Notes under the pieces: generated by a model | The model's input: the letters and a program-made list of their open reading frames with translations, nothing else | Told to the model about the DNA's origin: nothing | Databases searched by the model: none | Made by a program: the position numbers and the translations under genes | In this document: piece by piece, positions 14,703 to 60,149 of the stretch | Layout of the letters: the number at the start of each line of letters is the position of its first letter | Position numbering within the stretch: the first letter of the stretch is position 1 | Assembly: GCF_004010195.1 (NCBI RefSeq) | Contig: NC_057752.1 | Span: forward strand, 12,898,381 to 12,962,380 | From: Chiloscyllium plagiosum | Lineage: Eukaryota | Reading direction: 5' to 3' | DNA length: 64,000 nucleotides

Positions 14703-14838
14703 GAGAAATTGAGGTCTGCAGATGCTGGAGATCAGAGCTGAAAATGTGTTGCTGGAAGGGCTTATGCCCGAAACGTCGATTCTCCTGTTCCCTGGATGCT
14801 GCCTGACCTGCTGCGCTTTTCCAGCAACACATTTTCAG
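14703..14838. mobile_element. 136-bp inverted PLE mini-insertion with 15-bp TSD
   Basis: TSD cgtgttatcatacag at 14688-14702 and 14839-14853; gctgaaaatgtgttgctggaa / ttccagcaacacattttcagc arms. Confidence 0.88.
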
Positions 14839-14933
14839 CGTGTTATCATACAGTCTGCCGTTACACACTAACTAATGTTAGCCGCTAGCAGTCTCCGTCA
14901 ACAGATATTCACCTTCCCAGCCAGATCGTGATC

Positions 14934-16417
14934 GTTCACCATGGATATCCAATCCCTCTACACCTCCATCCGCCATGACCAGGGCCTCCAAGCCCTCCAA
15001 ACGTCCCCAACAGTACCCTTCCACCGACACTCATTCGTTTGGCTGAACTGGTCCTCACCCTTAACAATTTCTCCTTTGAATCCTCCCACTTCCTCCAGAC
15101 CAAAGGGGTAGCCATGGGTACCGGTATGGGTCCCAGCTATGCCTGTCTCTTTGTTGGCTACATAGAACAATCGATCTTCCGTAATTACACTGGCACCACT
15201 TCCCACCTCTTCCTCCACTACATTGATGACTGCATTGGCGCCACCTCGTGCTCCCGCGAGGAGGTTGAGCAATTCATCAACTTCACCAACACATTCCACC
15301 CTGACCTTAAATTTACCTGGACCATCTCTGACACCTCCCTCCCCTTCCTGGACCTCTCCATCTCCATTAATGACGACAGACTTGACACCGGCATTTTTTA
15401 CAAACCCACCGACTCCCACAGCTACCTGGATGACACCTCTTCCCACCCTATCTCTTGCAAAAATGCCATCCCATATCCCCAATTCCTCCGCCTCCGCCGT
15501 ATCTGCTCCCAGGAGAACCAGTTCCACCANNNNNNNNNNNNNNNNNNNNNNNNNNNNNNNNNNNNNNNNNNNNNNNNNNNNNNNNNNNNNNNNNNNNNNN
15601 NNNNNNNNNNNNNNNNNNNNNNNNNNNNNNNNNNNNNNNNNNNNNNNNNNNNNNNNNNNNNNNNNNNNNNNNNNNNNNNNNNNNNNNNNNNNNNNNNNNN
15701 NNNNNNNNNNNNNNNNNNNNNNNNNNNNNNNNNNNNNNNNNNNNNNNNNNNNNNNNNNNNNNNNNNNNNNNNNNNNNNNNNNNNNNNNNNNNNNNNNNNN
15801 NNNNNNNNNNNNNNNNNNNNNNNNNNNNNNNNNNNNNNNNNNNNNNNNNNNNNNNNNNNNNNNNNNNNNNNNNNNNNNNNNNNNNNNNNNNNNNNNNNNN
15901 NNNNNNNNNNNNNNNNNNNNNNNNNNNNNNNNNNNNNNNNNNNNNNNNNNNNNNNNNNNNNNNNNNNNNNNNNNNNNNNNNNNNNNNNNNNNNNNNNNNN
16001 NNNNNNNNNNNNNNNNNNNNNNNNNNNNNNNNNNNNNNNNNNNNNNNNNNNNNNNNNNNNNNNNNNNNNNNNNNNNNNNNNNNNNNNNNNNNNNNNNNNN
16101 NNNNNNNNNNNNNNNNNNNNNNNNNNNNNNNNNNNNNNNNNNNNNNNNNNNNNNNNNNNNNNNNNNNNNNNNNNNNNNNNNNNNNNNNNNNNNNNNNNNN
16201 NNNNNNNNNNNNNNNNNNNNNNNNNNNNNNNNNNNNNCCCCACTCCCCTATTGTACTCTATGCTACTTTCTCCCCACCCCCAACCTCCTCTCATTTATCT
16301 CTCCACGCTTCAGGCACTCTGCCTGTATTCCTGATGAAGGGCTTTTGCCCGAAACATCAATTTTCCTGCTCCTTGGATGCTGTCTGAACTGCTGTGCTTT
16401 TCCAGCACCACTCTAAT
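14934..16417 (+). mobile_element. 5'-truncated Penelope-like element with RT coding region (spans assembly gap)
   Basis: LVLTLNNFSF..QTKGVAMGT.MGPSYACLF..YIDDCIG..LPFLDLSI..FYKPTDSHSYL is PLE-type RT/thumb; hammerhead at 16327-16360; TSD ccagatcgt(g/t)atc at 14921-14933 and 16418-16430. Confidence 0.9.
15530..16237. other. Assembly gap (708 N)
   Basis: Run of n. Confidence 1.
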
Positions 16418-17449
16418 CCAGATCGTTATCCACTCCTTTGTCTATCCAGCTGTTCTTCTCTCTCCTTGGGCTCTCTTCTCACCTATCATTCACTCTATAC
16501 CCCCTTCCCCCATGCTATCTTCAACATATAAACTGACATTTTCCTAGCCACCATCGGTTCTGAGGAAGGGCCACTGGACCTGAAACGTTAACTTTGATTT
16601 CTCTTCACAGATGCTGCCAGACCTGCTCAGCTCTTCCAGCAACATCTTTGCTTTCTGATTTATAGCACCTGCAGTTCTTTAGGTTTTTAGTTAATGTTTT
16701 GAGTCCGGAATGACTCTTGTGATGTTTGTTACTTAAATCAGTAGCTCACAAAGTGGTCTGTAGACCACTGGTGGTTTGAGAGGGTCTTCCCAATGACTCA
16801 CAGGATGGTCCAAGATCCAAGTCACTGAGGTGCAACACCACAGCTGAGGCCATATGAGAGAACAGACTAGAACTTTCAAGTTGACCACTCGCTTGATGGC
16901 ACCTGACATGATCATGTGTGTGGCATGTGTCTCCACAAACACACACAACGGCAACGTCAGCTAATAGTCAAGATTTATGGATCTGTGGATTTTGTTTGAT
17001 GTTTAGATATGAGACAAGTATTAGCTTCTCAAAAGAACGATTGATTTTGCATCACAGATTCGAATGTTTCAAATGAACCTGTATTCCCTTGCAGTATTCA
17101 TGTTTATCATTTGCAAATGTCTATTTTAGGTATTTATTTGATGCTTAATTTGAATAAATATACATAAATGTACTTAGAGCAGAAAAAAAGGCCACAAAAT
17201 ATTTCGAGCTTCCATAAGTTTCCATTCCTTCTGGTGAGTCTTATTCAGTGGCAAGAGAAAATGGCTGAGGTTAGACCAGGATAGAAATGTTTGAGAGCCA
17301 TTGACTGCACCAAAATCATTTGTGAACTTGGGGTGGTAGAGGGAGCGGTAGCTAAGGGGACAATGGATTACCATCTGTTGGCCAACATGAAACTGAACAC
17401 CAGGAACAGGAGGAAGCCGTTTGATCCGTCAAATCATTTTTAAAAATTC

Positions 17450-18005
17450 TTTCATGGGTGTCACTGGCTGGGCCCAGCATTTTTTGCCTATCCTGAGTTG
17501 CCCCCTCGAGAAAGTGGTGGTTAGCTGCCTTGTGCTATAGGTTGACCGACAATATCCTGAGGGAGGGAATTCCAGGATTCTGACCCAGCGACACTGAAGG
17601 AACGGTGATATATTTCCAAGTCAAGATGATGAGTGGCTTGGAGGGGAACTTGCAGAGGGTGGTGTTCCCATATATCTGCTGCCCTTGATCTTCTAGATGG
17701 AAGTGGTCGTGTGTTTGGAAGGTGCTGTCTGAGGATCTTTGGTGAATTTCTGCAGTGCCTCTTGTACATGGTACACACTGCTGCTACTGAGCATTGGTAG
17801 TTGTGGAAGTGGATCTTTGCAGATGTGGTGCTAAACAAGCGGGCTGCTTTGTCCTGGATGGTGTCAAATTCCTTGAGTGTTGTTAGAGTTGCACCCATCC
17901 AGACAAATGGGGAGTATTCCATTGCACTCCTGCTTTATGTCTTGTAGGTAGTGGACAGGCTTTGGTGAGTCAGGAGGTGAGTTACTCACTGCAGAATTCC
18001 AGTTC
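17450..18005 (-). mobile_element. Family C LINE (CR1/L2 group) 3' fragment
   Basis: ORF 17521-17922 MEYSPFVWMGA..TLKEFDTIQDKAARLF..WNSLP is a non-LTR ORF2 C-terminus distinct from HER1. Confidence 0.85.
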
Positions 18006-18124
18006 TTGTCGTTTATATGGTGTGTCCGGTTGAGTTTCTGGTCAGTGGAAATTCCCAGTATGTTGACAGTACGAATTTCACATGCAAGCCAGTCTGTTTA
18101 AGTACAGCAAATCTTTTATCCCTC

Positions 18125-18340
18125 AATGACCTTTGTGAGTGAGCCAGATGGGTTTTTATGACAATCTGGTGATTTTGCAGTCACTGTTACTGGTATTAGC
18201 TTTTTATTTAATTGTGGCTGTATGTAAAAAATTGAACTTAAATTCTCCAGCAGCTGTGATAGGATTTGAACTAAAATCTCCAGATCAGTAATCCTGGCCT
18301 CTGGATTATTAATGCAACAAGATGACCACTGCGCCCATGT
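18125..18340 (-). mobile_element. SINE family B fragment
   Basis: gagccagatgggtttttatgacaat..ggatttgaac..ctctggattatt. Confidence 0.65.
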
Positions 18341-18639
18341 AATGCCGGTCAATAGTCAGGAGTTTTATGTAGCGAGTGGGTACTTAGGTTGATTTTTCTT
18401 CCCTTGGAATAAAGCACTGAGGAAAATTGTTGTATTTTAACACAGCACAGAATAGGGATCGAACCTTCCAGTTCTGTCAGGCGCAGTACTACACCAGGAC
18501 GTGTATTTGCCAGTAAGCCATTGGGACTCTTTCCCCCCCCCCCCCCCACCCTTCTGTTGTACAGCAATGTCATTTCTTGGAACTATCTGAAAACTCTAAT
18601 GCTAACTCCCACCAAATCCTGTCCACCAGACTACTTTGG

Positions 18640-19100
18640 ATCCCCATATCTAAGAGATAAGAGAGAGGCAAGAGTGGACATTGGACCGCTGGAAAATGAA
18701 ACTAGAGATGTAGTATTAGGGAACAAAGAAATGGCAGAGGAACTGAACAGGAACTTTGCATCAGTTTCAGAATGGAAGATACCAGCAGCATACTAGAGCT
18801 TCAAGAGAGTCAGGGCAGAGATGAGTGCAATGGCCATCACTAAGGAGAAGGTGCTGGGGTGGCTGAAAGGTCAGAAGGTGGATAAATTACCCAGTCCAGA
18901 TGGACTACACCCCAGAGTTCTGAACAAGATAGCTGAAGAGATTGTAGAGACATTGGTGATGAGCTTGCAGTAATCACTGGAGTCAGGGAGGATCCCAGAG
19001 GACTGGAAAGTAGCTAATGTAACACACCTGTTTAAGAAGGGAGGTGAGCAGAAGACAGGAAACTATAGGCCCAGTTAGCCTGACCTCATTCATTGGTGAG
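18640..19100 (+). mobile_element. CR1 ORF2 internal fragment
   Basis: EMAEELNRNFASV; ccagatggactacaccccagagttctg; gactggaaagtagctaatgtaacac. Confidence 0.85.
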
Positions 19101-19479
19101 ATTGGGAAGGGTTGGGGTGAGGAAGGAGGGGGGGAGGGTTGGGGTTGGGGTGGAGGTGGGGTGGAGGAGGCAGCGTGGTGTGATGGAGGAGATGGAGGTG
19201 TGATGGGTCTACCTACAGCACATGGACTGCAACGGTTCAAGAAGACAGCTGACTATCATCTCAATTGGCACTGGGTATGGTCAATAAGTGCTGGGTCAGC
19301 TAGCCACGCCCACATCCTACAAACAAATAGCAAATAAGCTCCAAACCGACAAGAAGTTGGTTGACTCTCAACCGTCCTCTGAAATGGCCCCAGTTAAAAT
19401 CTTTTTTTAAAGGTGATTAGGGATGGGCAGCATATGCCCCAATTAGCAAGATATTGAAAGGTGCTTGGCACTTGTGGCA

Positions 19480-20262
19480 CACACACAGTACAGAAAGAGA
19501 CCCTTCGGTCCAAACCAGTCCATGCCGACCATAATCCTAAACTAAACTAGTCCCACCTGTCTGTGCTTGGTCCATATTGCTCCAAACCTTTCCTATTCAT
19601 GTACTTCTCCAAATATCTTTTAAATGTTGTAACCGTACCTGAATCCACTGCTTACTCAGGAAATTGATTCAATGCACAAACCACCCTCTGTGCCAAACAT
19701 TTGCACCTCACATCTCTTTTAAATCTCTCTATTCTCACCTTAAAAATGTGCCCTCTATTCGTGAAATCCCCCAACCTAGGAAAAGGCACCTACTGTTAAC
19801 TCTATCTATATCTCTCATGATTTTATACATTTCTATAAGGTCACCTCTCAATCTCCTATGCTGCAATGAAAAAGGTCCCTGCCTATCCAGCCTTTCTTTA
19901 TAAGTCCAATCTTTTGTACCCGTTAAATTTACCAGTATCTTGGCAAATTTCTTCTGAACCCTCTCCAGTTTAATAATATCCTTCCTGTAACAGGGCGATC
20001 AGAACTGGGCACAATACTCCAGAAGAGGCCTCACCAATGTCCTGAACAACCTCAACATGACGTCCCAACTCCTACACTCAAAGGGCTGAGCAATGAAGGC
20101 CAGTGTGCTACACATCTTCTTAACCCCCCCTGTCTATATGTGACGCAAACTTCAAAGAACGATGTACCTGAACCCCTAGGTGTGTCTGCTCTACAACAGT
20201 ACCTAAGGCCCTACCATTAATTGTATAAGTCCTACCCCTGTTTGTTGTACCAAAGTGCAATA
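19480..20262 (-). mobile_element. CR1 LINE 3' fragment
   Basis: Homologous to 9512-9975 and 21436-21840. Confidence 0.85.
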
Positions 20263-20949
20263 CCGAGATCGGTCAAGATGGCACAAGTTCAGGATTCATT
20301 CCATCCGGCAAGGCTGAGTTTGAACTCCTGTCCCAGACTTAAAACACCAACTTCACACACATCACAGCTAAGTTGACCATAGCTTGAGGTATACCAGAGT
20401 ACAGTCAGCTCAGAGCATTCAGGTCATGGGTGTTGTGTGTCACAAAGCGTCTGTCAAATCCTTACCGTCACTGAGTGAAAGCTCCCTGACTGACTCTCTG
20501 AGCCTCACTGCAGCCTGAACATGACAGCAATGGTATGAAAATACAGTTGTGTACGTGCAGATAAATCTTCTACTTGCACTTTCAAAGTGACATGCTGGCT
20601 TCACTAACTCCTTGTAGGCATGGTTACCATTAGTTTAATATTAATTCATGGGACTGAACCTTCACCCTTGTCAAAATTAGATCTATAAACCATCACCGTT
20701 GAGCTCACCATTCCATACCTCTTGTTAATTAGACACATATGTGAGAAAAAGATTGCAAGCTGCTCCATTTGCTATATGTTCTGTATGCTGTGGAACAGCC
20801 AAAGGGGTGCATAGTTTTCTCAGACATAAATGGCATTCTTTAGAGGGCTCCTTTCTCGAGAAAAGGAAAAGAAAAATGAGGGTGATCTAGAATCTGAGAG
20901 TCATAAAGTTAGCATGGCAAAGAAAGAGACCATTTGGCCTCTTCCAGCT

Positions 20950-22790
20950 CTAGGATTGGTATCCAAGTTTATGAAAGGGTTTCAATGGGTAGATGCGGAG
21001 AAGGTTGTGCCTTCTTGCAGGGGAGACCCGAGCTAGGGGCTATCAATTTAGGATAGCCGCTAATAAACTTAACAGCCAACATACAGGGATATTTAATCTT
21101 TTGTAGAGACGGGAGGGATGGAAAAGAAAGTAGGGTAGAGTTTTTGAGGAAGTGTTCACCAGTGTGGATAGAGGGGAGCCAGTAGATGTCTTGTATTTGG
21201 ATTTTCAGAAGATGTTCGACAGGGTACCTCACAAAAGGTTAAGTCATAAGTGCTTGTGGTGTTGGAGGTAGTGTATCGGTCAGGATAGAGAATTGGCTCA
21301 TGGGTAGGAAACATCGAGGGGTTCTTTTTCAGGTTGGTAACCCGTGACCCGGGGTTCCACAGGGATTAGTGCAAGGACTGCAACTGCTTACCATGTCTAT
21401 TAATGACTTGGAGAAAGGAAGTGACTGTAAGCAAGAATCACCCCTCAACCTCCTACAATTCAAAGAAAAATGTCCCAGCTTTTCCAGTCTATTTTTGTCT
21501 CTCGACCCTTCCATTTCCGGCAACATCCTGGTAAATTTCTTCTGAACCTTCTCCAGTTTAATAATTTCCTTCCTATAACAGGGAGACGAGAATTGAATAC
21601 AGTACTCCAGAAGAGGCCTTACCAATGTCCTGTACAGCCTCAACGTGACTTCCCAACTCCTACACTCAAAGGTCTGAGCAGTGAAGGCAAGCATGCTAAA
21701 CATCTGTGACTCAAACTTCAAAGAATTATGTACCTGCACCCCTCGGTCTCTCTGTTCTACAACACTACCCAAGGCCCTACCATTAACTGTATAAGTCTTG
21801 TTGTTTGTTTTACCAAAATGCAGTACCTCGCACTTACTCAAAATAAGCTCACATCTGCTACTCCCCAGTCTGTTGAACCAATTGATTACGATCTTTTTGT
21901 AATCTCAGATAATCTTCTTCACTGTCCATGATGCCACCAATTTTGGTATCATCTTACTGACCATGCCTCCTATATTCTCATCCAAATCATTTATATAAAT
22001 GACAAACAAAAGTGGACCCAGCACCGATCCGTGTGAAACACCCATGGTTCGCTAGCCTCCAGTCCGAAAAACAATCCTCCACCTCCATCTGTCTTCTACC
22101 AACTGGGGGACTTGTGCCTGAAACACAGAAAGCAGCACACACGGGCAGCAGGGAATCAGGAAGGCTCAGGGAATGTTGGCCCTTATTCCAAGGGAGTTGG
22201 AGTGTAAGAGTAGGGAAGTCTTACTATAACTGTACAAGGTGCTGGTGAGACCACGTCTGGAACACTGTGAGCAGCTCTGGTCCCTTGTTTACGGAAAGAT
22301 GTCATTTCATTGGAGACAGTTCAGAGAAGGTTCACTAGGATGATCCCTGGTGTGGAGAAAAGGTTAAACAGGTTGGGACTCTACTCACTGGGGTTGAGAA
22401 GGATGAGAGCTGATCTCAGTGTAACATATTGGATACTTAAGGGGCTTGACAGGGTAAATACTGAGAGAATGTTTCCCCTCCTGGGAGAGTCTAGGACTAG
22501 AGGGCATAGTCTCAGAATAAAGGGGCACCAATTTAAGACTGAGATGTAGAAGAATTTCTTCTCCCAGCGAGTTTCGAACTCCTTGCCACAGAGATCTGTG
22601 AGGACAGATTCCTTGTGTATATTTATGGCTAGGGGATAGATTTTTGTTCAGTTGGGGAATCAAAGGTTATGAGGAAAGGGCAGCAAAATGGACGTGAGGA
22701 ATGTTGGATCAGTTATGATGCTGTTGAATGGTGGAGTAGGCCTGAGGGACTGAATGGCCTATTCCAATTGCTATTTCTTATGGCTTTATG
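20950..22790. mobile_element. Cluster of CR1 fragments: + (20950-21435), - (21436-22100), + (22104-22790)
   Basis: ORF 21329-21841 KCEVLHFG..LVRPLLEYCIQF; ORF 22310-22549 ETVQRRFTRMIPG. Confidence 0.85.
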
Positions 22791-23305: not shown

Positions 23306-23389
23306 AAAAGGATTTTAAAGAAGAGACGCATAAATGCTGACATGAATCTGTCAGGTGAACAGCCTGTTTCTGTGCTGTACATATTTTGC

Positions 23390-41169: not shown

Positions 41170-42190
41170 TATTACTAGAAAGTTGAAATATCAAGAAAAA
41201 AGAGAAGGTGCTGGGGCAACTCAGCAGGTTCTGGCAAAATCTGTGGAGAGAGAAACAGACTTAATGTTTCAAGTCCGGTATGACTCTTCTTCAGAAGTGG
41301 AGGCCTTCCCTTCAATGAATTTTGAACTCACCTTGGTGTTGTACTCTCTTTCTTTCCCCTCGTTTATTTCTCTGTCCTCGCATCCTTGATCAGAAAATCT
41401 TCTCCCATTCAGCAAACGCTTTCACCTATCTCTAGTTATCCACCTTCCACATAGACCCCTACCTGCTCTCCGCCTTTTGATTGAGAGCTTCAGCATATTA
41501 TTGGTAATTTTCATCTCTCCCCTCAACCACATGAACCCGACTGCCTGTGAATCCTCGGGTCCAAACCTGATCTTGTTATCAAAGCTGCTGAGAAGAGTTG
41601 GAGGCAGTGCCAACTCTCAGACACCTCCTGCCATCTTTCCCTGAACATCAAGGACTGTCACTGACCTCTGAAGATCTCCCCTCTATAGCTCCCTGCCTCA
41701 TAGAGTCCCCAACCCCACACAGCCCTCTCCTATCCTAACCACGGTGGCACAGTGGTTAGCACTGCTGCCTCACAGCACCAGAGACCCGGGTTCAATTCCC
41801 GCCTCAGGCGACTGACTGTGTGGAGTTTGCATGTTCTCCCCGTGTCTGCGTGGGTTTCCTCCGGGTGCTCCGGTTTCCTCCCACAGTCCAAAGATATGCA
41901 GGTCAGGTGAATTGACCATGCTAAATTGCCCGTAGTGTTAGGTAAGGGGTAAATGTAGGGATATGGGTGGGTTGCGCTTCGGCGGGTCGGTGTGGACTTG
42001 TTGGGCCGAAGGGCCTGTTTCCACACTGTAATGTAATCTAATCTAAAAAATCTAATCTACCTTCTTCCCAAAATCCACAAACAGGCCTGTCCTGGTCCAC
42101 CTTTTCTGCTCCACTGAAATTATTTCTTTCTACCTTGACTTTTGTTTTTCCTCCCCTGGTACAGTCTTTTCCCAGCTACATCTGTCATTC
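41170..42190. mobile_element. Decayed PLE: antisense pLTR (41170-41298) plus sense RT remnant, interrupted by HE1
   Basis: Minus-strand ctgaagaagagtcataccggacttgaaacattaa; plus-strand PDLVIKAAEK (cf. IVIKPADKG) and YLLPKIHK..CPG. Confidence 0.7.
41740..42058 (+). mobile_element. HE1-type V-SINE, young copy
   Basis: CpG-rich and apparently little decayed; (taatc)n tail. Confidence 0.92.
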
Positions 42191-43814: not shown

Positions 43815-44455
43815 GAAGTCCAGAAAACAGGGACATAGTTTAAGGATAAGGGGTCTGCCTTTTAGGACTGAGATGAGGAGAAATGTCTTTACCCGAAGAG
43901 TGGTGAGCCTGTGGAATTCACTACCACTGGACGTGGTTGAGGCCAGAATACTGACTGTTTTCAAGAAAGAAGTAGACATAGCTCTTAGGCATATGGTGTG
44001 GAGGTGCCGGTGTTGGACTTGGGTGTACAAAGTTAAAAATCACACAACACCAAGCTTTTGGAGCACTGCTGCTTCATCAGGTGGCTAGTGGGGCAGGATC
44101 ATAGGACACAGAATTTATAGTAAAATTTATAGTAATAAATCGAAACCTGCAACCCATTCTAAGTGATTAAAAATTAACAGTAATCTAGGTTTGTTCATAA
44201 CATCACATCAGTTATATGACGCTTTGAACTTTTACTATACATTCTGTGTCCTATGATGCTGCTCCACTAGCTCCTTGATGAAGGAGCAGCCCTCCAGAAG
44301 CTTGTACTTCCAGATAAAACTGTTGGACTATAACCTGGTGTTGTGTGATTTTTAACTTAAGCATATGGGGCATAGGGCAGGATCATATTGATTGGAGTAG
44401 CAGGCTCAAGGGGTCGAATGGCCTACTCCTGCTCCTATCTCCTATGTTTCTATGC
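43815..44455 (+). mobile_element. CR1 3' end interrupted by an inverted PLE insertion
   Basis: GHSLRIRGLPFRTEMRRNVFTRRVVSLWNSLP; ctatgtttctatg tail. Confidence 0.85.
43997..44355. mobile_element. Inverted PLE insertion (family of 3852-3985) with two decayed hammerheads and 13-bp TSD
   Basis: TSD ctta(g/a)gcatatgg at 43984-43996 and 44356-44368; arms aagttaaaaatcacacaacacca / tggtgttgtgtgatttttaactt. Confidence 0.82.
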
Positions 44456-45199: not shown

Positions 45200-46645
45200 A
45201 ACTTAGAAGCAGATGTATGCTGTTCAGCTCTTCAAGCCTGCTCCACCATTCAATAGATTAATGGCTGGTCAGATTGTGGTCTCAACTCTGCTTTCCCATA
45301 TGTTTCCCATGACCCTTGACCCATTTTTGATCAACTATCTCTTTATCTCTGCCTTGTAATTGTACTCTCATCTACCACTTCTTCTGATAGTTCATTCCAT
45401 ATATACACCACCTTCTGTGTGAGGAAGTTGCCCCTCAGATCCTTTTTTAAATCTTGCCCCTCTCATCTTAAACCTATGCCCTCTAGAATTAGACTCTCCT
45501 ACTCTGAGAAAAAAGACCTTGGCTATTCACCCTATCCATACCTCTCATGATTTCATAAACATCTATAGAGTCACCCCTCAGCCTTTGATGCTCCAGGGGG
45601 AAAAAAAAGTCCCAGCCTATCCAGCGTCTCCTTATGACTCAAACCCTCTAGTCTTGATAACATCCTTGTAAATCTTTTTTGCATCCTTTCCAGTTCAAGA
45701 ACATCCTTCCTATAGCAGCATGACTAGATTGTACGCAGTACTCCAAATGTGGCCTTACCACTGACTTGTACAACTGTGGACAAAATTCACATTCTCCCAC
45801 TGATACCTGCCCAATTTATTCCCACTCACCTAACCTATGCTTTTCCAGATGATATACCACCTCTTCAGAATTTACTGTTCTATCTATCTTGGTGCAGGTT
45901 TAGATACTGTATATTCAGTACCTTCACCCAGGTTGATATAGGTTGTAAGTAATTGAGACCCTAACATTGATCCCTACGGGGAGAAAGTGAGGTCTGCAGA
46001 TGCTGGAGATCAAAGTTGAAACTTTATTGCTGGAACAGCACAGCAGGTCAGGCAGCATCCAGGGAGCAGGAGATTCGACGTTTCGGGCACAGGCCCTTCT
46101 ATTCGACGTTTCGGGCACGGGCCTGTGCCCGAAACGTCGAATCTCCTGCTCCCTGGATGCTGCCTGACCTGCTGTGCTGTTCCAGCAATAAAGTTTCAAC
46201 ATTGATCCCTACGGCTCTCGTTTCAACTTTCTAACGTAAAAATGTTGGGTTTATGACTACTTGCTGCTTTCTGTTTGCTAATCAATCTTTTATCCATGCT
46301 AATAAGTTACTCTCTATGCCATGAGTGTTTATTTTCTGTCGGAACCTTGGATATGCTGTTTAGAAATCCAAGCACTCGCTGTCCACGGCTTCTTCTTTGT
46401 CCACTTTGCCTGTTACGTCGTTATATAACTCGAATAAATCAGTTAAGCATTCACAAAATCATGTTGACTCTGCCTGACTCCATTAGAATTTTTTAAGTAC
46501 CCTGCTATTGCCTACTTACTAATGGATTCTAACAATTTCCATATGGTGGACGTCAGGCTAACTAAATTCTGCTTTCAGTCTTCCAGTTTATTTAATAAGG
46601 GTGAAATATTGATTATTATCCAATCCATTGGGACCTTTCCAGAAT
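45200..46645 (-). mobile_element. CR1 fragments (45200-45780 3' ends; older fragment to 46645)
   Basis: ctctcatgatttcataaacatctatagagtcacccctcagcc; ccattgggacctttccagaatc. Confidence 0.7.
45980..46200. mobile_element. Near-perfect palindromic PLE mini-insertion with TSD
   Basis: TSD (aac)attgatccctacgg at 45963-45979 and 46198-46214; ~80-bp perfect inverted arms. Confidence 0.92.
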
Positions 46646-51099: not shown

Positions 51100-52520
51100 G
51101 TAGTATGGAAAATGCTAAGAGTCCATTATAAAAGACTGACTAGGAGGGCACTTGGAAAACAATAACAGGATCAGACAGAATCAGTATGAGTTTACTGGAA
51201 GGGGTATCATGCTTGACAAATCTGGTGTTTTCAAGGATATAATTTGTAGAGTTGTTAAGGAAGAGCCGTTGATGGAGTTTACTTGGACATTTGATAAGGT
51301 CCAACTAAGAAATGAGCATGTAAAAATAAAACACATTGAATTGGGTGTATTGTACTGAAATGGATAGGGAACACTGGTTGGTAGTCAGGAAACAGAGTAG
51401 AAATGAATGGGTCATTTTCTGACTGGTGGCCAGCAACGAGTGGGGTATCCAGGGATCAGTGCTTGGACCCCAGCTATTCACAATATATATTAATGATTTA
51501 GTTGAGGAAACTAAATGTAGTATTTCCAAACTTACAGATGACACAATGCTGGGTGAGAGGGTGAAAAGGATGCTTCAGTGTAATTTGGAAACGTTGAGTG
51601 AGTGGGCAAATGTATGGCAGATGAAATATGTTGTGGATAAATGAGAGCTTATCAACCTTGGTGATAAAAACATGATAGTAGATTATTATATGAATGGCAA
51701 TAGATTGGGAAAGGGGAAGTGTAATGAGATATGGCTGTCCTTGTACACCAGTTACTGAAAGTAAGCAGGTGCAGCAGGCGGTGAAGAAAACAAATGCTAT
51801 GTTGTCCTTCATAGCAAGACCATTTGGGTACAAGAGCAGGGATGTCTTGCTGTAGTTGTATAGGGCTTTGATGAAACCATGCTCAGAGTATTGTGTGTAG
51901 TTTTGGTCTCCTTACCTGAGGAAAGGTGTTCTGGCGATGGAGGGAGTGCAGCAAAGGTTTCCCGGACTGATTCCTGGGATGGCAGGACTGATATATAAAG
52001 GGATTCTGGATTAGTGGTGCTGGAAGAGCACAGCAGTTCAGGCAGCATCCAAGGAGCTTCGAAATCTTTATTCCTGATGAAGGGCTTTTGCCCGAATCGT
52101 CGACTTCGAAGCTCCTTGGACACTGCCTAAACCGCTGTGCTCTTCCAGCACCACTAATCCAGAATCTGGTTTCCAGCATCTGCAGTCATTGTTTTTACCT
52201 CGTTGATATATAAAGGGAGTTGACCTTAAAGAGGTTTATAAAATCATGAGAGTGTGGATAAGGGTAATGGCAGGTGCCTTTTCCCTAGGATGGTGGAGTT
52301 CAAGACTAGGGGGCATATTTTTAAGGTGAGAGGAGAAAGATTTAAAAAGGACATGAGGGGTAACTTTTTTCTACACAGTGATTCATGTGTGGAATGAACA
52401 TCCTGAGGATGTGGTCAGTGCAGGTACAGTTACAATGTTTAAAAGATATTTGGATAAGTGCATGAATAAGAGGGCTTGGGCTAAGTGCAGGCAGTTGGGA
52501 CTAGTTTAGTTTGGGATTAC
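51100..52520 (+). mobile_element. CR1 RT-to-3' fragments with nested PLE mini-insertion
   Basis: QGSVLGPQLFTIYINDL..SKLTDDT. Confidence 0.85.
52004..52203. mobile_element. 200-bp inverted PLE mini-insertion with hammerhead and 15-bp TSD
   Basis: TSD tgatatataaaggga at 51989-52003 and 52204-52218; attc-ctgatga-agggc-tttt-gccc-gaat-cgtc at 52070-52101. Confidence 0.9.
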
Positions 52521-52629: not shown

Positions 52630-52740
52630 TGCTCTTGTGCAGTGGTAGTGTCCAAACCTCTGAACCAGGCGACCTAGGTTCAAGTCCTACCTGCTGCAGC
52701 AGTGTGGAGTAACATCTCTGAACAGATTGGTTAGAAACAA
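52630..52740 (+). mobile_element. Short tRNA-derived SINE (family D)
   Basis: gtgcagtggtagtgtcc A-box, ggttcaagtcc B-box, aacatctctgaacag. Confidence 0.6.
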
Positions 52741-54119
52741 CCTCAAGTTAGAGAGGAAGGTGGCAAGAGTTCAGGGGGACAGGATGCTCCTTTCTCCTCA
52801 TAGTCCCCATCCGAGATGAAATGCGGTTATAGTTAATTCCAACTCCCGCCCCTTCACTTTGACTCAGCAGCGGAGACTGGGTGAGGGCTGCAAGTCTGTG
52901 TTCTCAAATGACATCTGGGGAATTCTGAAAAGGAAAGAAGTTTGAGATGTGTTAATAAATCCAATGACACATTGGATGGTGTGTCTCTCACTTCCACTTT
53001 GGTGTGCATTCGCACTATTCCTCAGCATTCAAATAGCAACTGCAGCCTCTTGTTGGGTCCACTTTGAGAGATTAGTAGCTTTCACAACTGTTGTTGTGGC
53101 CCTTTTAACTGCAATCCGCAAATCTGGCAACTCACCTCAGGCAGTGCTACTGCTGGATGGCAATCACATCATTGCCTGAGGCAGGCAGACTGATGATTTA
53201 AAAGGGCTCTGCCAGTTCCCATTACGCCAAAACCACAATCACATTTCATACATCTGTGTCCGCAAACAGACAACGTCCCTCGAGAGTTCTGGAGCCCAGG
53301 CAGCGACTGTCAGCAAGCTATTTGACTGTAGTAGGCTGCACTGATCCTGACTTCACCCAGAGCCTAAGCTGAGAGCAGTAACCTGAGCTGTAAAAATCAC
53401 AGACAAGGAATGGAGGATCAGAATGAGCACAGAGAAGGGAGCCATTCAGCCCACCAATGCTATCTCTGGTAGAGCCATCCAGCTAGTCACACAACATCAC
53501 TCTACTGTCCCCATAGCCCTGCATGCTGATACCCAGCAAACTTCCCTGGTTGATTGGTCAGCAGGTTTTAGGGGATTGCATTTAGCACCCAGGGGTCCTG
53601 ATCACGGGGAATGCCAGCTGGTGGCTACTTAAATGCCTGAGAGAATTTAATAACAGCAGGTCTCTCCTAGAGGAGGCAGTGCAACCTCTATCTTTCCAGC
53701 CATTTGGCAATACCGACTCCTCCATAAAATCCCACCCTTAAAATGTACCACACAGAAACAGGCCATTCAGCCCCACTGTGCACTGCTTGTCTTTAGGACC
53801 AGAAGAATCTGCTCCCACCCAATGATTTTCAAAAAAAGATTTTCAGGGATGACACAAGAACTGAACAGATTGCTTTGCAGGCAAGATCGAACAAACTGGG
53901 TCTCTTCTTGAGAAGAGAAAAAGTGGAGGGGAACACTAGCTCTTTAAGATAATGAAAAGGTTCAGTCAGGTGGATGTAGAGATGATGCTTCCAGTTGTGA
54001 GAGAGACCAATGCAAGGAGCCTTAAATGTTAGAGAGTCTAGTGTATTCAGTCAAAACTTCCTCACAGAGAGATCAGTGAAAACCTGAAGCCGGTTACCAC
54101 ACAGAGTGGATTGTTTTTA

Positions 54120-54370
54120 AAATTCTTCCATGGGATTTGGGAACTGCTGGAAAGGCCAGTATTTGTTGCCCATCCCTAATTGCCCTCGAACTAAGTCTCT
54201 TGGCCATTTCAGATGGTGGTTAAGATTTAACCACATTGGCTGTGGGCTTGGAGTTATGTGTAGGCCACACCGTGTAAGGATGGCAGACTTAACATCAGTG
54301 AAGTGGATGGAGTTTTTCCAACAATCGACTTGAATTTAAATTTCACCAGTTTTGGTCTCTGGATTAATGA
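54120..54370 (-). mobile_element. SINE family B
   Basis: gttgcccatccctaattgccctcgaact..aaccacattggctgtggg. Confidence 0.7.
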
Positions 54371-55139
54371 TGCTGTGGTCTACATTCTTTCGAATTATTT
54401 TGTCATAACAAAAACATAGATGGCCCGGGGTAAAGTTCTAAGTAGCATCTTAAATGAAGGCAGAGAGGTTCCGGGAGGGAAATGCAGAACTTAGGACTCG
54501 TGGTAGCTGCAGGCAGAGTCATTAAAGTTGATACTGTGCAAAACATCAGATTTGGAATAGTTCAGAGATCTCGGAGGCCTATAGGGTGAATGAGAGTACA
54601 GAGACAGGGACAAGACATCCCTTATACACAAGGGTTATTCAAAACATTTGAAAAGGGCTCCTGCCCAAGCATGCAGTTAACAAGTCTGTTATGATGCAGG
54701 TTCTGTTTATGGTACCATTCTTGGGGTTGTCCCTTGTTGCTGAATTTCTGAATTGGTTTTCTGAATTCTTTTATCCACTAGCCACTTAAGAGACAGGAGC
54801 CCTTTATTCCAGTTTCCTCCTTTTAATTCACAATCAGCTTCCACAGGTAAAAGAGACGTCTATGCTACCAAGGCCCGAGTAACATCCCATTGAACACTGC
54901 TGGGAGGCATCTTTCTTTAATTTGCCCATGAAGCCACCTGCAGACCTATTACCATGGAAACTTGACAAGAAATGTGCGTACCTTCATGAAGTTATGAAAA
55001 TGAAGGTGGAGCTGTTTGGAATGATGGTGGGATTCTATTAACAGGACGAAAAGGTGCCAGGGTTTTCATGAGCTGTGAAGATTGTACTCCTGTTAAAAAT
55101 ATTTGTGAGATACATGAGAAAGAGATAGAGACTGGCATA

Positions 55140-55300
55140 ACAGGGAGACAGTGAGGTCTGCAGATGCTGGAGATCAGAGTTGAGAGTGTGTTGCTGGAAA
55201 AGCACAGCAGGTCAGGCAGCATCCGAGGAGCAGGAAAATCGATGTTTTGGGCTGGAGCCCTTAGTCAGGAATGATAAATGGGAGGGGAGGGAGGGAGCTG
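55140..55300 (-). mobile_element. PLE pLTR fragment with mutated hammerhead
   Basis: Minus strand attc-ctgacta-agggc-tcca-gccc-aaaa-catc. Confidence 0.8.
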
Positions 55301-56032
55301 GGGAGGGGCGTCATTGAATTCCCCTTTCTCCTGTGTATCACTGGGTCACTGCTCTCATGGTCGCTGATCGTGTGAGGCTCTAATGATCAGAAAGTCTTCA
55401 CAAGAGGGTGTTGGTGGATCCCGATATTGGGCAGAATCCCATTAGCGTGTGGGAGGTGGTTGGGGGGGGGGGCATGAGAAATGTTGACATTCGTGGAACA
55501 CTTAAACGAGATGTTTGGCTAAGCCCACCTTGACGTCAGGAGTATCTCGTTCAACCTTTCATTCTTTTACCAAGCAGCGAGGTGAGTTTCCCACTGATCA
55601 GCTGTCAATGAAGGGGGTGTGTTTAATGCTTGTTAGCCTTAAACGCCTTGCTAGCAACTCAACTCACCTTCTTAATATTCAGCTATCTTCCCAAACAGGC
55701 TGAACAAACTCGATGCCAAGCTGCCTCCAGCTTGGGTACCTTGCAACTTCAGCTCACTCCTGGCTGCTGCCAGCCTCTGCAACTCAGGGCACAATCCATG
55801 GACACCAGCCACGTACAGCCCTCTTCCATGGACATTGGTGTCGGATACTTGCCTAGCCCGCGTGGGCATGTTGAGGGACTCAGTAAAGTTAGGAAAGAGG
55901 TACGTGAAGAAAAGTTGGTGTCCAGGTACTGAGGGACTGGAAACCATTGAACTCCCCTCAGGATCTGCACCTTACAAAGGGCGTACATTGTGAGTCAACA
56001 GGGTTGACAATGTACCGTGGCTCCTCAGAATG

Positions 56033-56246
56033 TATGAAGTGAGGACTGCAGATGCTGAAGACGTCAGAATCGAAAAGGTGGCACTGGAAAAGCACAGCAG
56101 GTCAGGCAGCATCTGAGAAGCAGAAGAGTTGATGTTTCAGCCATAAGGGCTACATTCCTGATGAAGAGCTTATGCCTGAAACATCGACTCTCCTGCTCCT
56201 TGGATGTTGCCTGACCTACTGTGCTTTCTACCTCCACCCTTTTCGA
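56033..56246. mobile_element. 214-bp inverted PLE mini-insertion with hammerhead and 12-bp TSD
   Basis: TSD ctcctcagaatg at 56021-56032 and 56247-56258; attc-ctgatga..gaaa-catc-gact at 56154-56189. Confidence 0.88.
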
Positions 56247-56534
56247 CTCCTCAGAATGGAACCTGGTCAAGAGAAAAAAAGATACCTATTGCATGGCCTG
56301 CCATTTCCAGTTTGAAATGATTTTGCCCTCAGCTGTATACCCAATGTGGAATGTATTTGTATAAATATTAAAACTATTGCAAGCGTATGGAATGGAAGTT
56401 GCTATATTGGGGCAAGTTGAATTTTATTACAAATGCTGTAATATTCAAATTGAAATCTTTCGTAATGTATTTCATTTTGCAAATTTGATGAACTAGGCGT
56501 ATTATTTTGAAAAAAGAACTTGATTATTGAAAGG

Positions 56535-56800
56535 AAAAACCTGTTGTCAAACTTTCTTGTCTTACACCCCATCAGGACCAATGCAAGAATGCCAAATTTC
56601 AGACAATTTATCTGACCAAAGATAGAGGTGACAATTGACAAGTCAACTCTGGGTCAAGGCATTGCCAAGGGGAAAAAGAAAGGCAAACATTTCTTTTCCT
56701 TGGTAGTAGAAATTGGAATCATTTAAAATTTAGCATTCATGTATTTGTTTTCTGGTGAGTGAAAGAGCAGAAATGTTGGCAGCGTATATGTTTTCTTTTC
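56535..56800 (-). mobile_element. Old PLE pLTR relic (family of 28580-29120)
   Basis: Minus strand gtc-ctgatgg..gtaagacaagaaagtttgac is a decayed hammerhead-like motif. Confidence 0.45.
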
Positions 56801-57919
56801 AATTGACTGAGTCAGCAGTGTCAATACGCATTCCTCTGATGTCTTAAAATACATGAAGGTGGATAAATCCCCGGTACCTGATCAGGTGTCCCCTGGAACA
56901 CTGTGGGAAGCTAGGGAAGTGATTGCTGGGCCCATTGCTGAGATATTTGTATCATCGATAGCCACATGTGAGGTGCCGGAAGACTGGAGTTTGGCAAATG
57001 TGGTAACACTGTTTAAGAAAGGTGGTAAGGAAAAGCCAGGGAAATATTGACTAGTGGGCCTGACATCAGTAGTGGGCAAATGTAGGGAATCCTGAGGGAC
57101 AGGATTTGCATGTATTTGGAAAGGCAAAGACTGATTAAGGATAATCAACATGGCTTTGTGTGTGGGAAATCAATTCTCTAACCTGATTGAGTTTTTTGAA
57201 CAAGTAACGCAGATGATTGATGAGGACAGAGCAGTGGATGTGATCTATATGATCCTCAGTAAGGCGTTGGACAAGGTTCCTTATGGTAGACTGGTTAGAT
57301 CACATGGAATACAGGGAGAACTAGCCATTTGGATAAAGAACTGGCTCGAAGGTAGAAAGCAGAGGGTGGTGGTGAAGGGTTGCTTTTCAGATTGGAGGCC
57401 TGTGACTCGTGATGTGCCACACAGATTAGTGCTGAGTCCACTGCTTTTTGTCATACATATAAATGATTTGGATGTGAACCCAGGAGGTATAGTTAGTAAG
57501 TTTGTAGATGACACCAAAATTGGAGGTGTAGTGGACCGTGAAGAAGATTACCTCAAAGTATGACGGGATCTTGATCAGATGGGACAATGGGCCGAAGAGT
57601 GGCAGATGGAATTTAATTTAGATAAATGTGAGGTGCTGCATTTCGGAAAGGCAAATCAGGGCAGGCCTTATACACTTAATGGTAAGGTCCTAGGGAGTGT
57701 TGCTGAACAAAGAGACCTTGGAGTGCAGGTTCATAGCTCCTTGAAAGTAGAGTCGCAAGTGGATAGGATAGTGAAGAAGGTGTTTGGTATGCTTTCCTTT
57801 ATTGGTCAGAGTATTGAGTACAGGAGTTGGGAGGTCGTGTTGTGGCTGTACAGGCATTGGTTAGGCCACTTTTGGAATATTGCGGGCAATTCTGGTCTCT
57901 TTCCTATGGGGAAGATGTT

Positions 57920-58385
57920 TTTTTTTAATTCCCTACAGTGTGGAAACAGGCTCTTCGGCCCAACCAGTCCACACTGACCCTTCGAAGAGTAAGCCACCAA
58001 GACCCATTTCCCTCTGACTAATGCACCTAACACTATGGGTAATTTAGGTAAAAACAAAGACTGCAGATGCTGGAAACCAGATTCTGGATTAGAGTGGTGC
58101 TGGAAAAGCACATCAGGTCAGGCAGCATCCGAAGAGCAGGAAAATCGACGTTTCGAGCAAAAACCCTTCATCAGGAATACAGCACTATGGGTAATTTAGC
58201 ATGGCCATTTCACCTAACCTGCACATCTTTGGACTGTGGGAGGAAACCGGGGTACCCGGAGGAAACCCACGCAGACACAGGGAGAATGTGCAAACTCCAC
58301 ACAGATAGTCACCCGAGGCTGGAATCGAACCTGGGACTCTGGCGCTGTGAGGCAGCAGTGCTACCCACTGAGCCACTGTACCGAT
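57920..58385 (-). mobile_element. HE1-type V-SINE containing a PLE mini-insertion
   Basis: HE1 head at 58340-58385; A-tail (T9 on +) at 57918-57926. Confidence 0.9.
58048..58182 (-). mobile_element. 135-bp PLE mini-insertion with hammerhead and 17-bp TSD
   Basis: TSD cactatgggtaatttag at 58031-58047 and 58183-58199; minus strand attc-ctgatga-agggt-tttt-gctc-gaaa-cgtc-gatt. Confidence 0.9.
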
Positions 58386-58449
58386 GAAATGTTTGCTATG
58401 GAGTGCATATAGGGACATCCTTGCAGGTCTTACCTGCCTTCAGTTAGCT

Positions 58450-58757
58450 AGATTAGATTACTTACAGTGTGGAAACAGGCCCTTTGGCCCAACAAGTCCA
58501 CACCGATCCTCCAAAGAGCAACCCACCCAGACCCATTCCTCTACATTTATCCCCTCACCTAACACTACGGGCAATTTAGCATGGCCAATTCACCTAACCT
58601 GCACGTTTTTGGACTGTGGGAGGAAACCGGAGCACACGGAGGAAACCCACGCAGACACTGGGAGAACGTGCAAACTCCACACAGACAGTTGCCTGAGGCG
58701 GGAATTGAACCCGGGTCTCTAGCGCTGTGAGGCAGCAGTGCTAACCACTGTGCCACA
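58450..58757 (-). mobile_element. HE1-type V-SINE, young copy
   Basis: Very similar to 41740-42058; (taatc)n tail. Confidence 0.92.
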
Positions 58758-59020
58758 GTTGTGAAACTTGAAGAGGTTCAGAAAAGATTTATAAGCATGT
58801 TGCCAGGGTTAAAGGATTTGAGCTATAGGGAGAGGCTGAATAGGCTGGGCTACTTTCCCTGGAGTGTCGGAGGCTGAGGGGTGACCTTATAGAGGCTTAT
58901 AACATCATGAGGGGCATGGATAGGATAAATAGCCAAGATCTTTTCCCTGGGGTGGGGGAGTCCAGAACTAGAGAGCATATATTTAGGGTGAGAGGGGAAA
59001 GATATAAAAGAGATCTAAGG

Positions 59021-59180
59021 GGCACTCCCTCAGCAGTGACCCTCCGATAGTGCGGCACTCCCTCAGCACTGACCCTCCGACAGTGCGGCACTCCCTCAGC
59101 ACTGACCCTCTGACAGTGCGGCACTCCCTCAGTACTGACCCTCTGACAGTGCGGCACTCCCTCAGCACTGATCCTCTGAC
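59021..59180 (+). repeat. 33-bp minisatellite, about 4.8 copies
   Basis: Unit ggcactccctcagcactgaccctccgacagtgc starting at 59021, 59054, 59087, 59120, 59153. Confidence 0.95.
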
Positions 59181-59944
59181 CAGGCAATGAGCCCGAGTGT
59201 TCATGCAGCAAACGTGTTGAATGGAGTAGGTATTGACATTGTGTGACAGTGAGGGGATAGTCTGTTTATTGCTCTCCTCCTAATCTGTATTCCCAGTTGC
59301 CGGATCTGACAGGTTCTTAACAAGACCAGTTTGAATGAGGAAGGCCCTATGGCCCTTATTTGAACATGTCAAAGATGTATTATAATTACATTGTATGTTG
59401 CGAATAATGTTGATTTTGTGACAGAGGTTGGGTTGTAACATGTTTGTGTACAATGTATGATGCAAGTGTAATTCGTTGGTTGTGAAGTGCTTAGGCATGT
59501 GGAAAGAATATCTTTTCTCTCTGCTGCGAACCTAACGAAGGACAGTGTGGTTCGCAGAGAGAAACTGTCTCCTCTGCTTGGAGAGTCCAGACAACGGGGT
59601 GTAACCTTAAAATGATAGGGAGACTGTTCAGGAGGCACTTGTTCACACCAAGTGGAATGTAAATCTGCATTGTTCTCACCTCAACTCATTTTATTGTTTT
59701 GTAGCATTATTAATCGTTTTGCAAGCAGAAATGAAATGAAGATAGATACAGTCATGTGAGGAGCTGAATGGTCCTCTGCTATTCCAGTGCTTTATATCTC
59801 AGAGATCCCCTACAGTGTTGAAACAGGCCATTCAGCTCAAGTTGTCCACACTGACTCTCCAAAGAGCATCCCAACCAGACTCACCCCCTACTCTATCCCT
59901 GCATTTCCTATGGCTAATCCATCTACCCTACACATCCTTGGACA

Positions 59945-60149
59945 GGAAGAAAGTGAGGACTGCAGGTGCTGGAGATCAGAGTCAAAAAGTATAGTGCTGG
60001 AAAAGCACAGCGGGTCAGGCAACATCCAAGGAGCAGCAGAGTCGAAATTTCAGGCATAAGCCCCTCATCAGGAAATACAGTGTCACTATAAAACATCAAC
60101 ACATTCCTGATGAAGGGCTTATGCCCGAAACGTTGACTCTCCAGCACCA
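59945..60149. mobile_element. Inverted PLE mini-insertion with two opposed hammerheads and ~14-bp imperfect TSD
   Basis: TSD cacatcc(t/c)tg(g/a)aca at 59931-59944 and 60150-60163; hammerheads at 60041-60074 (-) and 60103-60138 (+). Confidence 0.85.
60103..60138 (+). ncRNA. Minimal type I hammerhead ribozyme motif (best-preserved copy)
   Basis: auuc-CUGAUGA-a-GGGC-uuau-GCCC-GAAA-c-GUU-gacu: both core boxes, 4-bp stem II, palindromic aacguu minimal stem III, NUH triplet; stem I is weak. Confidence 0.7.

What the first reader, a model, noticed from the sequence alone, without database searches (positions are those of the whole stretch)
14703..60149. Truncation and inversion junctions cluster at the hammerhead core
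Seen: the inner ends of arms fall within about 20 nt of the CUGAUGA box in independent insertions. Examples are 14756 (gaa|gggcttatgccc), 46096-46123 (inside stem II), 52065-52070 and 56145-56154 (just before attcctgatga), 58182 (8 nt before the box), 60074/60103 (both arms) and 3860-3868. Most retain the sequence 5' of the predicted NUH cleavage site, so the template was not cut at that copy of the ribozyme. Inference: the folded or dimeric ribozyme, or a transcript start just upstream, acts as a stop or template-switch point for the PLE reverse transcriptase.
Basis: partly seen in the sequence, partly recalled or inferred. Interest (0 to 1): 0.72.

Follow-up and report, generated by a model that had tools for sequence, protein, structure and literature searches.

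The report
Penelope stubs end at ribozyme front
Short copies of a Penelope-type jumping gene in this shark genome end preferentially at the front edge of a small self-cutting RNA motif, likely because the element's RNA starts there and the copying enzyme runs off its end, rather than because the folded ribozyme blocks it.

Summary
The clustering is real. Of 25 arms of Penelope-like elements (PLEs) that I counted in the window, 12 end between 9 nt before and 11 nt into the CUGANGA box. That is 11-15 times the rate further downstream (p about 1e-6; scan test at most 5 of 40,000 simulations). Most clustered ends lie on the far (5') side of the fold, which argues against a stall at the ribozyme. 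Best reading (0.55): reverse transcription starts internally 85-130 nt downstream, as published for an Anolis PLE, and runs off a transcript that starts at about -8/-4. Support is indirect: G is the commonest base beside the -4 junction (cap-like), and TATA/initiator-like motifs sit at fitting distances. Main rival: a stall at a conserved 6-bp hairpin just upstream. Subfamilies also diverge at -5, which inflates the peak. Known element type; pile-up not found in print.

The parts
7456..7738 (+). Long family-a arm used as reference: 3' UTR, upstream hairpin 7621-7635, hammerhead 7636-7671 (C3=7640, cut 7667|7668), body; no tail
7621..7635 (+). 6-bp hairpin directly 5' of helix I (rival stall site); compensated counterpart at 16311-16325
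   Evidence: -7.4 and -7.1 kcal/mol, two pairs changed on both sides
14703..14838 (.). Head-to-head insertion, 15-bp TSD; tailed minus arm ends at +69, plus arm starts at +5, 3-nt overlap
14934..16417 (+). Long 5'-truncated copy with RT fragment (14979-15529), N gap, 3' UTR and hammerhead (C3=16331); 13-bp TSD
45980..46197 (.). Head-to-head insertion, 17-bp TSD; minus arm ends at +5, 18-nt re-copied antisense piece, plus arm starts at +8; arms 79/79 identical
52004..52203 (.). Head-to-head insertion, 15-bp TSD; minus arm ends at +28 (cleavage site), tailed plus arm starts at -4 (or -8)
55144..55310 (-). Single tailed arm running about 40 nt past the ribozyme; lacks 26 nt, including the upstream hairpin, relative to family a
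   Evidence: no TSD found
56033..56246 (.). Head-to-head insertion, 12-bp TSD; tailed minus arm ends at +11, plus arm starts at -5
58048..58182 (-). Single tailed arm inside a SINE, 17-bp TSD; 5' end at -8
59942..60148 (.). Head-to-head insertion inside a SINE, 11-bp TSD; minus arm ends at -3 to -8, filler of about 26 nt, plus arm starts at -5 and is internally deleted
3852..3985 (+). Family-2 single arm, 15-bp TSD, 16-nt filler, element starts at -3 (3868)
43997..44355 (.). Family-2 head-to-head insertion, 13-bp TSD; both arms pass the ribozyme by at least 48 nt (counter-example); TATAAAT at -39
63835..63990 (.). Family-2 head-to-head pair; minus arm ends at about +9, plus arm starts at +53
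   Evidence: no TSD found
14545..16690 (.). Family-3 insertion: minus arm 14545-14648 ends at +24; long plus arm (C3=16560) hosts two family-a/b insertions
   Evidence: no TSD found
41200..41300 (-). Family-3 arm (C3=41294) ending at about -2 to -8; uncertain, no TSD
1500..1728 (+). Family-3 arm (C3=1619) that passes the ribozyme by at least 32 nt
   Evidence: upstream match to 16560 copy reached by 1 of 500 shuffles
1..240 (+). Family-4 arm (C3=123), long, cut by the window edge
6451..6982 (+). Family-5 long arm with endonuclease remnant and hammerhead (C3=6868), 13-bp TSD

Best explanation
These are stub insertions of a Neptune-type Penelope-like element whose 5' ends pile up 3-9 nt before the hammerhead core, likely because the element's transcript begins there and the reverse transcriptase, predicted to start internally 85-130 nt downstream, runs off the RNA's end. 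Steps: (1) Shown: 11-17-bp target duplications, arms whose outer ends fall at two fixed places (about +86-98, or +122-130 with the tail), single or head to head. (2) From published work on an Anolis PLE, not tested here: the enzyme cuts both DNA strands, binds the first 172 nt after the upstream repeat and starts copying at two internal sites. (3) Inferred: a transcript from the pLTR promoter therefore yields only a 90-140-nt cDNA that ends at the transcription start, at about -8 or -4. (4) Inferred: cDNAs started at a downstream repeat of a tandem transcript pass the ribozyme freely and give the long copies. (5) Inferred: in head-to-head pairs both cut DNA ends prime, and the two cDNA ends are trimmed and joined by short matches or filler; ends at +5 to +11 would be run-off ends trimmed back to the stem II hairpin. 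(6) Inferred from one arm (52066): a minority of templates had been cut by the ribozyme at +28.
For: Clustering: 12 of 25 arms, p about 1e-6. After passing -9, arms run on: 1 end in 589 nt. Genome-wide: depth rises 7.4, 10.4 and 7.1-fold across 7633/7634 in three DNA contig sets and 11.2-fold in RNA reads, against 1.5-1.6 for the next bin. The largest listed 5' loose ends are at 7636 (-4: 564, 384, 552 records) and 7635 (-5: 563, 301, 504), of 14,855, 8,550 and 14,833 partly laid records; the next listed 5' site has 240 or fewer and is a reference mismatch. Loose sequence at 7636 is AT-rich with agreement 0.30-0.31 (unrelated flanks), but the base next to the junction is G in 3 of 3 runs; with no extra G this has probability 0.004-0.013 per run and needs about 8-10% or more extra G (runs share insertions, so not three independent tests). 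An extra G marks full-length, capped L1 templates (PMC11702581, passage). A(-4) sits in a YYANWYY initiator-like motif in 3 of the 5 families with native upstream sequence (7640, 1619, 123). TATAWAW matches of 6/7 or better lie at -47..-32 in 3 of 5 families (background 9.6%), 5/7 in the other two (background 46%); both consensus motifs are recalled. Ends at -3 to -8 also occur in families 2 and 3, whose long copies show no upstream hairpin. Internal initiation, shorter products from 5'-shortened templates and no need for ribozyme cleavage are reported in PMC11167929.
Against: No transcript start was seen: the RNA run is single-cell poly(A) and listed no start pile-up (table 6), which is uninformative. 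None of the 6 window arms ending at -3 to -8 without the TSD abutting shows an untemplated G. Subfamilies diverge just upstream of -5: loose sequence at 7635 is C-rich like another 3' UTR, RNA loose ends at 7636 give the second subfamily's upstream sequence (agreement 0.44), and 4 listed joints skip from 7516-7536 to 7635; so the step and the sharpness of the peak are overstated by an unknown amount. A conserved hairpin ends at -5/-6 in the two family-a subfamilies. The family-a TATA match is no better than background. In Drosophila virilis the start lies about 120 nt upstream of helix I, behind an intron, with a TATA-less promoter (PMC2377424; PMC4209133). Five of 12 clustered arms end inside the core, which needs the added trimming step. 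Only 6 loose-end rows per run were shown (1,677 hidden), so no full histogram was seen.
Confidence: 0.55

Rival explanations
1. The RT copies the whole ribozyme and then stalls at the 3' foot of a 6-bp GC-rich hairpin that lies directly 5' of helix I, on a template that extends further upstream.
For: The hairpin is predicted in both family-a subfamilies with different sequence and two compensated pairs, and ends at -5 and -6. Frequent variants listed fall in its loop (7627, 7628) or outside it (7616-7620), none in the stem among the 40 of 376 rows shown. The 55268 copy lacks 26 nt that include the hairpin, with a junction at -5.
Against: No such hairpin in long copies of families 2, 3, 4, yet 3868 and 41294 end at -3 and about -5. 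It does not predict a G next to the junction. Its stability (-7 kcal/mol) is close to that of stem II (-6.5), which the RT passes.
Confidence: 0.17
2. The template's 5' end is made by processing rather than by transcription start: 3'-end cleavage after a poly(A)-signal-like hexamer, or a 5'-3' nuclease stopped by the folded or protein-bound ribozyme.
For: The peak is the outermost base of helix I. TATAAA and CATAAA at -39..-32 in families 2 and 3 are also poly(A)-signal variants (recalled).
Against: An uncapped end does not predict the adjacent G. Family a has no such hexamer. Helix I is weak: 68% of cells paired, with one mismatch column.
Confidence: 0.1
3. One reading: the folded or dimeric hammerhead core itself stops the RT or makes it switch template.
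For: Five arms end inside the core at +5 to +11, rate ratio 11 against downstream (p 9e-4). The 46101-46118 re-copied piece starts and ends within the ribozyme. Stem II is well kept (95.5% of cells paired).
Against: A stall should leave ends at the 3' edge (+19 to +32); only 2 of 25 arms end there, not above background. The main peak is 5' of the whole fold. Core mutants did not change product size in vitro for the Anolis element (PMC11167929).
Confidence: 0.08
4. Artefact: short copies are easier to spot, or subfamilies share sequence only from the ribozyme onward, or a few short master copies were amplified.
For: The subfamily boundary at -5 is real and feeds the 7635 peak and part of the 7636 peak.
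Against: Target duplications fix the insertion ends without reference to homology. The excess holds against the downstream stretch, where ascertainment would favour ends. Junctions differ between insertions. DNA loose ends at 7636 are unrelated flanks (agreement 0.30).
Confidence: 0.07
5. Ends are random, and junctions survive only where two antisense cDNAs can anneal through the stems of the RNA.
For: 6 of 7 listed strand-switch joints pair -5..-2 with +29..+33, +47 or +57 (2-11 contigs each in at least one run), places with short self-complementary matches.
Against: Self-complementary 4-5-mers are densest at +42..+64, not at -9..+11. Single arms without inversion end at the same place (58182, 3868; loose ends). 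It can explain the partner arm's end only.
Confidence: 0.03

Closest known systems
Poseidon of Anolis carolinensis (PAc), internal initiation of reverse transcription (Frangieh et al. 2024, PMC11167929; parts 1-2 of 4 read, supplements searched as text with no hit, figures not seen)
   Same: Two fixed outer ends about 35-40 nt apart that define the tail, lying 85-130 nt past a hammerhead; AT-rich targets (TSDs 39% GC); little sign of cleaved templates.
   Different: The shark element is Neptune-type. The text read describes 3' ends of genomic copies and reports no pile-up of 5' ends and no transcription start at helix I.
[quoted passage not shown]
   Same: CUGANGA, one extra base, stem II, GAAA, palindromic 4-nt stem III, short helix I; mostly solo motifs, some as close opposite-strand pairs.
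   Different: The paper calls solo motifs probably truncated PLEs but maps no ends; it proposes cleavage and circles as template, whereas here most copies keep the 5' side of the cut site.
Tandem/inverted PLE insertion units with one-sided tail (Arkhipova et al. 2013, PMC3846280; Craig et al. 2021, PMC8557442; passages read)
   Same: Inverted 5'-truncated arm, 30-40-bp tail on one side, TSD; TATA plus Inr-like motifs noted in a rotifer pLTR.
   Different: Inverted junctions were read there as self-priming on palindromes; the passages seen do not tie junction position to the ribozyme or to a transcript start.
L1 twin priming and cap-derived extra G at full-length 5' junctions (PMC11702581; passages read)
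   Same: Head-to-head arms from two primed DNA ends, discrete TSDs, microhomology at the inner joint, G at run-off ends.
   Different: L1 arms are adjacent, non-overlapping parts of one RNA primed at the poly(A) tail; here the arms overlap almost fully and start at two fixed internal sites.
Animal non-LTR retrozymes (Li, Clavereau and Pollet 2026, 10.64898/2026.07.22.740005; part 1 of 5 and passages read)
   Same: Non-coding, hammerhead-bearing derivatives of pLTRs, also reported in a cartilaginous fish.
   Different: Retrozymes are head-to-tail tandem units; these are dispersed single or head-to-head stubs with TSDs.

Membership tests
EN+ Penelope-like element | PLE-type RT in the same element | tested here: met
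   14979-15527 is 87-93% identical to shark PLE-type proteins P0002-P0004, weak RVT_1 hit E 3e-4, and lies in one TSD-bounded insertion with the hammerhead at 16331 (an N gap lies between)
EN+ Penelope-like element | C-terminal GIY-YIG endonuclease | tested here: inconclusive
   Hidden by the N gap in this copy; present in the 87%-identical P0004 (E 2.5e-4, below the Pfam cut-off) and above cut-off in P0014
EN+ Penelope-like element | pLTR with direct or inverted arms, one-sided tail, TSD | tested here: met
Neptune clade | CX2-5CXXC linker between RT and endonuclease | tested here: met
   Seen in P0004 and in 54 of 61 relatives with a GIY-YIG-like motif, of 120 fetched; not visible in the window copy itself
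Neptune clade | Placement in an RT tree with reference clades | not tested
   No tree was built
Minimal type I hammerhead | CUGANGA, extra base, stem II, GAAA, palindromic stem III, NUH, short helix I | tested here: met
   stems differ in sequence yet pair across five families; within family a/b stem II 95.5% paired, helix I 67.9% (little covariation signal, 40-91 of 500 shuffles as high)
Minimal type I hammerhead | Match to an Rfam hammerhead model | tested here: not met
   No hammerhead family up to E=1 in the window; minimal forms lack stem III, so this is expected
Minimal type I hammerhead | Self-cleavage | not testable with these tools
   One arm starts at the predicted site (52066); no assay
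Non-LTR retrozyme | Head-to-tail tandem units each with a hammerhead | tested here: not met
   Copies in the window are single or head to head

The most novel reading that the evidence does not exclude
The element places its ribozyme at the very first bases of a capped transcript, so self-cleavage at +28 would decap its own mRNA, and the genome's many stubs are a fossil primer-extension record of both RNA states: capped starts at -8/-4 (with cap-derived G) and cleaved starts at +28, joined head to head by a dimeric RT that primes both DNA ends at the two internal start sites.
Probability: 0.2. Interest if true: 0.7.

Novelty: new variant of a known kind. Interest (0 to 1): 0.42.

Why it matters
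How PLEs copy themselves in vivo, and what their hammerhead is for, is open (PMC8557442, PMC11167929). If the stubs are run-off products, they confirm in a genome the internal initiation seen in vitro, map the promoter for free, explain why solo minimal hammerheads are so abundant and why full-length copying needs tandem templates, and show that the ribozyme is usually uncut in the RNA that gets copied. A large genome-wide sample makes this directly testable. The element type and insertion layout are already known, and the same pile-up was noted in many other windows of this scan, so the finding is a refinement, not a new system.

Tried and rejected
No own genome is held, so the full TSD-anchored histogram could not be made. 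Collection scans for more copies gave nothing usable: 120 metagenome loci, none with more than a 28-40-nt weak match; 0 viral contigs; 9 bacterial loci taken as chance 20-mers and not examined further. Rfam found no hammerhead. No RNA holder was listed for the stretch, and the one RNA run laid showed both strands and no start pile-up; both are uninformative on expression or starts. Cleavage-site run-off as the main cause was rejected: 1 of 25 arms, and +28 is not among the listed loose ends. A 3' splice site at -9 (AG at 7630-7631), by analogy with the D. virilis intron, was considered: no shared first exon is seen in front of the stubs (fillers differ and share 6-7-mers with their own flanks; not tested against chance), so it was dropped. 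Loose ends at 7687 and 7671 were set aside as reference mismatches, because their loose sequence is element sequence. The 3' peak at 7720 is partly a subfamily boundary. Whole-stub folding is only weakly better than shuffles (z -0.05 to -2.4). The guess that 7366-7455 is the ORF start found no significant protein match. Literature searches that did not turn up a report of 5' ends piling at the ribozyme: (open-access library only; Fig. S2 of PMC11167929 and older subscription papers were not seen and could show it).

Full report
What the repeat is. The window is shark DNA: an RT fragment at 14979-15527 is 87-93% identical to proteins labelled Chiloscyllium punctatum by their source. A close relative (P0004) carries RT, a cysteine linker and a GIY-YIG motif, and 54 of 61 fetched relatives with that motif have the CX2-5CXXC linker, the mark of Neptune-type Penelope-like elements (PMC8557442). 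The RT fragment and a hammerhead at 16331 lie in one insertion bounded by a 13-bp duplication. A descriptor scan and manual reading found hammerhead-bearing ends of five PLE families. All fit the minimal type I hammerhead of PMC4209133. I number from C3 of CUGANGA: helix I begins at -4, stem II spans +8..+19 and the predicted cut is +27|+28 in family a/b.

Checking the observation. The cited junctions exist and have their own TSDs of 11-17 bp. Mapped to the element, most cited arms end at -8 to +11, but two do not: 52066 ends at +28 and 14757 at +69. A census of 25 arms from all five families gives 7 ends at -9..-3, 5 at +5..+11, 4 further downstream (+24, +28, +53, +69) and 9 arms that pass through. 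Against the stretch between the outer end and the ribozyme, the rate of ending in -9..+12 is 11-15 times higher (p 4e-7 to 7e-6); a constant-rate simulation gave 12 ends in any 22-nt window in 0-5 of 40,000 runs. Beyond -9 only 1 end falls in 589 nt. Dropping four arms (uncertain ends, second arms of pairs) leaves p 5e-4. The census is by hand and the zone was chosen after seeing the data; the scan test covers the latter.

Genome-wide look. No assembly was available. I laid three public contig sets (two of organism A, one of organism B) and one RNA run on 7340-7745 at 80% likeness. Depth rises 7-11-fold from bin 7620-7633 to 7634-7647 and only 1.5-1.6-fold to the next bin; upstream it does not decay. 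The two largest listed 5' loose-end sites are 7636 (-4) and 7635 (-5), together 7-8% of all partly laid records, 3' ends included. Six of the 7 listed strand-switch joints have one side at 7635-7638. Limits: only 6 loose-end rows per run and 15 of 350 joints were shown, the tool did not count everything, and contigs break in repeats, which favours short copies in unique flanks. A real confound also shows: subfamilies diverge upstream of -5, so long copies of other subfamilies clip at the same place. This explains the C-rich loose sequence at 7635 and part of the RNA signal at 7636. The DNA loose sequence at 7636 is different: AT-rich, agreement 0.30-0.31, as for unrelated flanks.

Which side of the ribozyme. 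An RT reading the RNA 3' to 5' meets helix I at +31 and stem II at +19. Ends there are not enriched (2 of 25). The main peak lies where the RT has already copied the entire ribozyme. This argues against the folded core as the stop, in line with the Anolis element, where core mutants gave the same product size (PMC11167929).

Why -4. Three indirect signs point to the RNA's own 5' end. First, the commonest base next to 7636 is G in 3 of 3 DNA runs, although C is excluded by alignment and A or T should lead (p 0.004-0.013 per run; about 8-10% extra G suffices; runs not independent). An extra G marks capped full-length templates in L1 (PMC11702581). The window's own arms do not show it (0 of 6). 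Second, A(-4) is the central A of a YYANWYY motif in 3 of 5 families (background 1.1% per site, but the context is pyrimidine-rich and families are related). Third, TATA-like boxes of 6/7 or 7/7 lie at -47..-32 in families 2, 3 and 5 (background 9.6%), while family a and 4 score only 5/7. The motif consensus and the 30-nt spacing are recalled. The published mechanism supplies the prior: the Anolis enzyme needs the first 172 nt behind the repeat and starts at two internal sites, so a monomeric transcript from the pLTR promoter would be copied only from that site back to its start.

Rivals. A 6-bp hairpin ends at -5/-6 in both family-a subfamilies, with two compensated pairs. It could stall the RT at the same place and is the strongest rival; it is absent from long copies of families 2, 3 and 4, two of which still have arms ending at -3 and about -5. 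Processing to an uncapped end, a stall in the core, artefact and microhomology selection are weighed in the Rival explanations section. Self-complementary words are densest at +42..+64, which fits the partner ends at +47 and +57 but not the peak.

Head-to-head pairs. In 5 of 5 family-a/b pairs one arm has the tail and the other does not, matching two start sites, and partner arms share private variants (79/79 at 45980-46197, 60/65 at 52004-52203). I infer priming from both cut DNA ends on RNA from one source locus. All five ends at +5..+11 are in such pairs, which suggests trimming back to the stem II hairpin before joining; this is untested. The 52004-52203 pair joins an arm starting at -4/-8 to one starting exactly at +28, and 3 listed joints pair -5..-2 with +29..+33; cleavage and annealing through helix I both fit.

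Comparison and verdict. Element class, minimal hammerhead, inverted arms and tail are all described (PMC4209133, PMC3846280, PMC8557442, PMC11167929). Seven searches found no report of 5' ends piling at helix I; unseen figures and subscription papers could hold one. Earlier agents in this scan reached the same reading in other windows of the genome; those notes are unchecked and I count them as no support. Interest 0.42.

Noticed in passing
7621-7635 and 16311-16325: A 6-bp hairpin with a 3-nt loop directly 5' of helix I, kept in two subfamilies through two compensated pairs.
   Followed up: partly
e.g. 58129-58066 (minus), 16610-16675, 166-228, 14622-14556 (minus): The body motif GATGCTG and its complement in the tail are shared by four families and pair in predicted folds: a candidate RT-binding helix.
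   Followed up: partly
14545-16690: A family-3 PLE insertion hosts two later family-a/b insertions (14703 and 14934).
   Followed up: partly
58031-58199 and 59930-60159: Two independent PLE stubs sit in copies of the same SINE family, within about 15 nt of the same SINE position; possible target preference.
   Followed up: no
7351-7455: An ATG-started frame (7366) runs into the 3' end of the element; by eye it resembles the N-terminus of related ORFs, which would make this copy an internal deletion, but blastp was not significant.
   Followed up: partly
3852-3867 and 60076-60101: Fillers at the 5' junction share 6-7-nt words with their own flanks, in both orientations; not tested against chance.
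   Followed up: partly
46101-46118: An 18-nt antisense piece of the ribozyme (+14..+31) is copied a second time between the two arms: a backward jump of the polymerase.
   Followed up: partly
62002-62432: Tandem array of about 70-bp units.
   Followed up: no
15530-16237: Assembly gap of 708 N inside the long PLE copy hides its endonuclease region.
   Followed up: no
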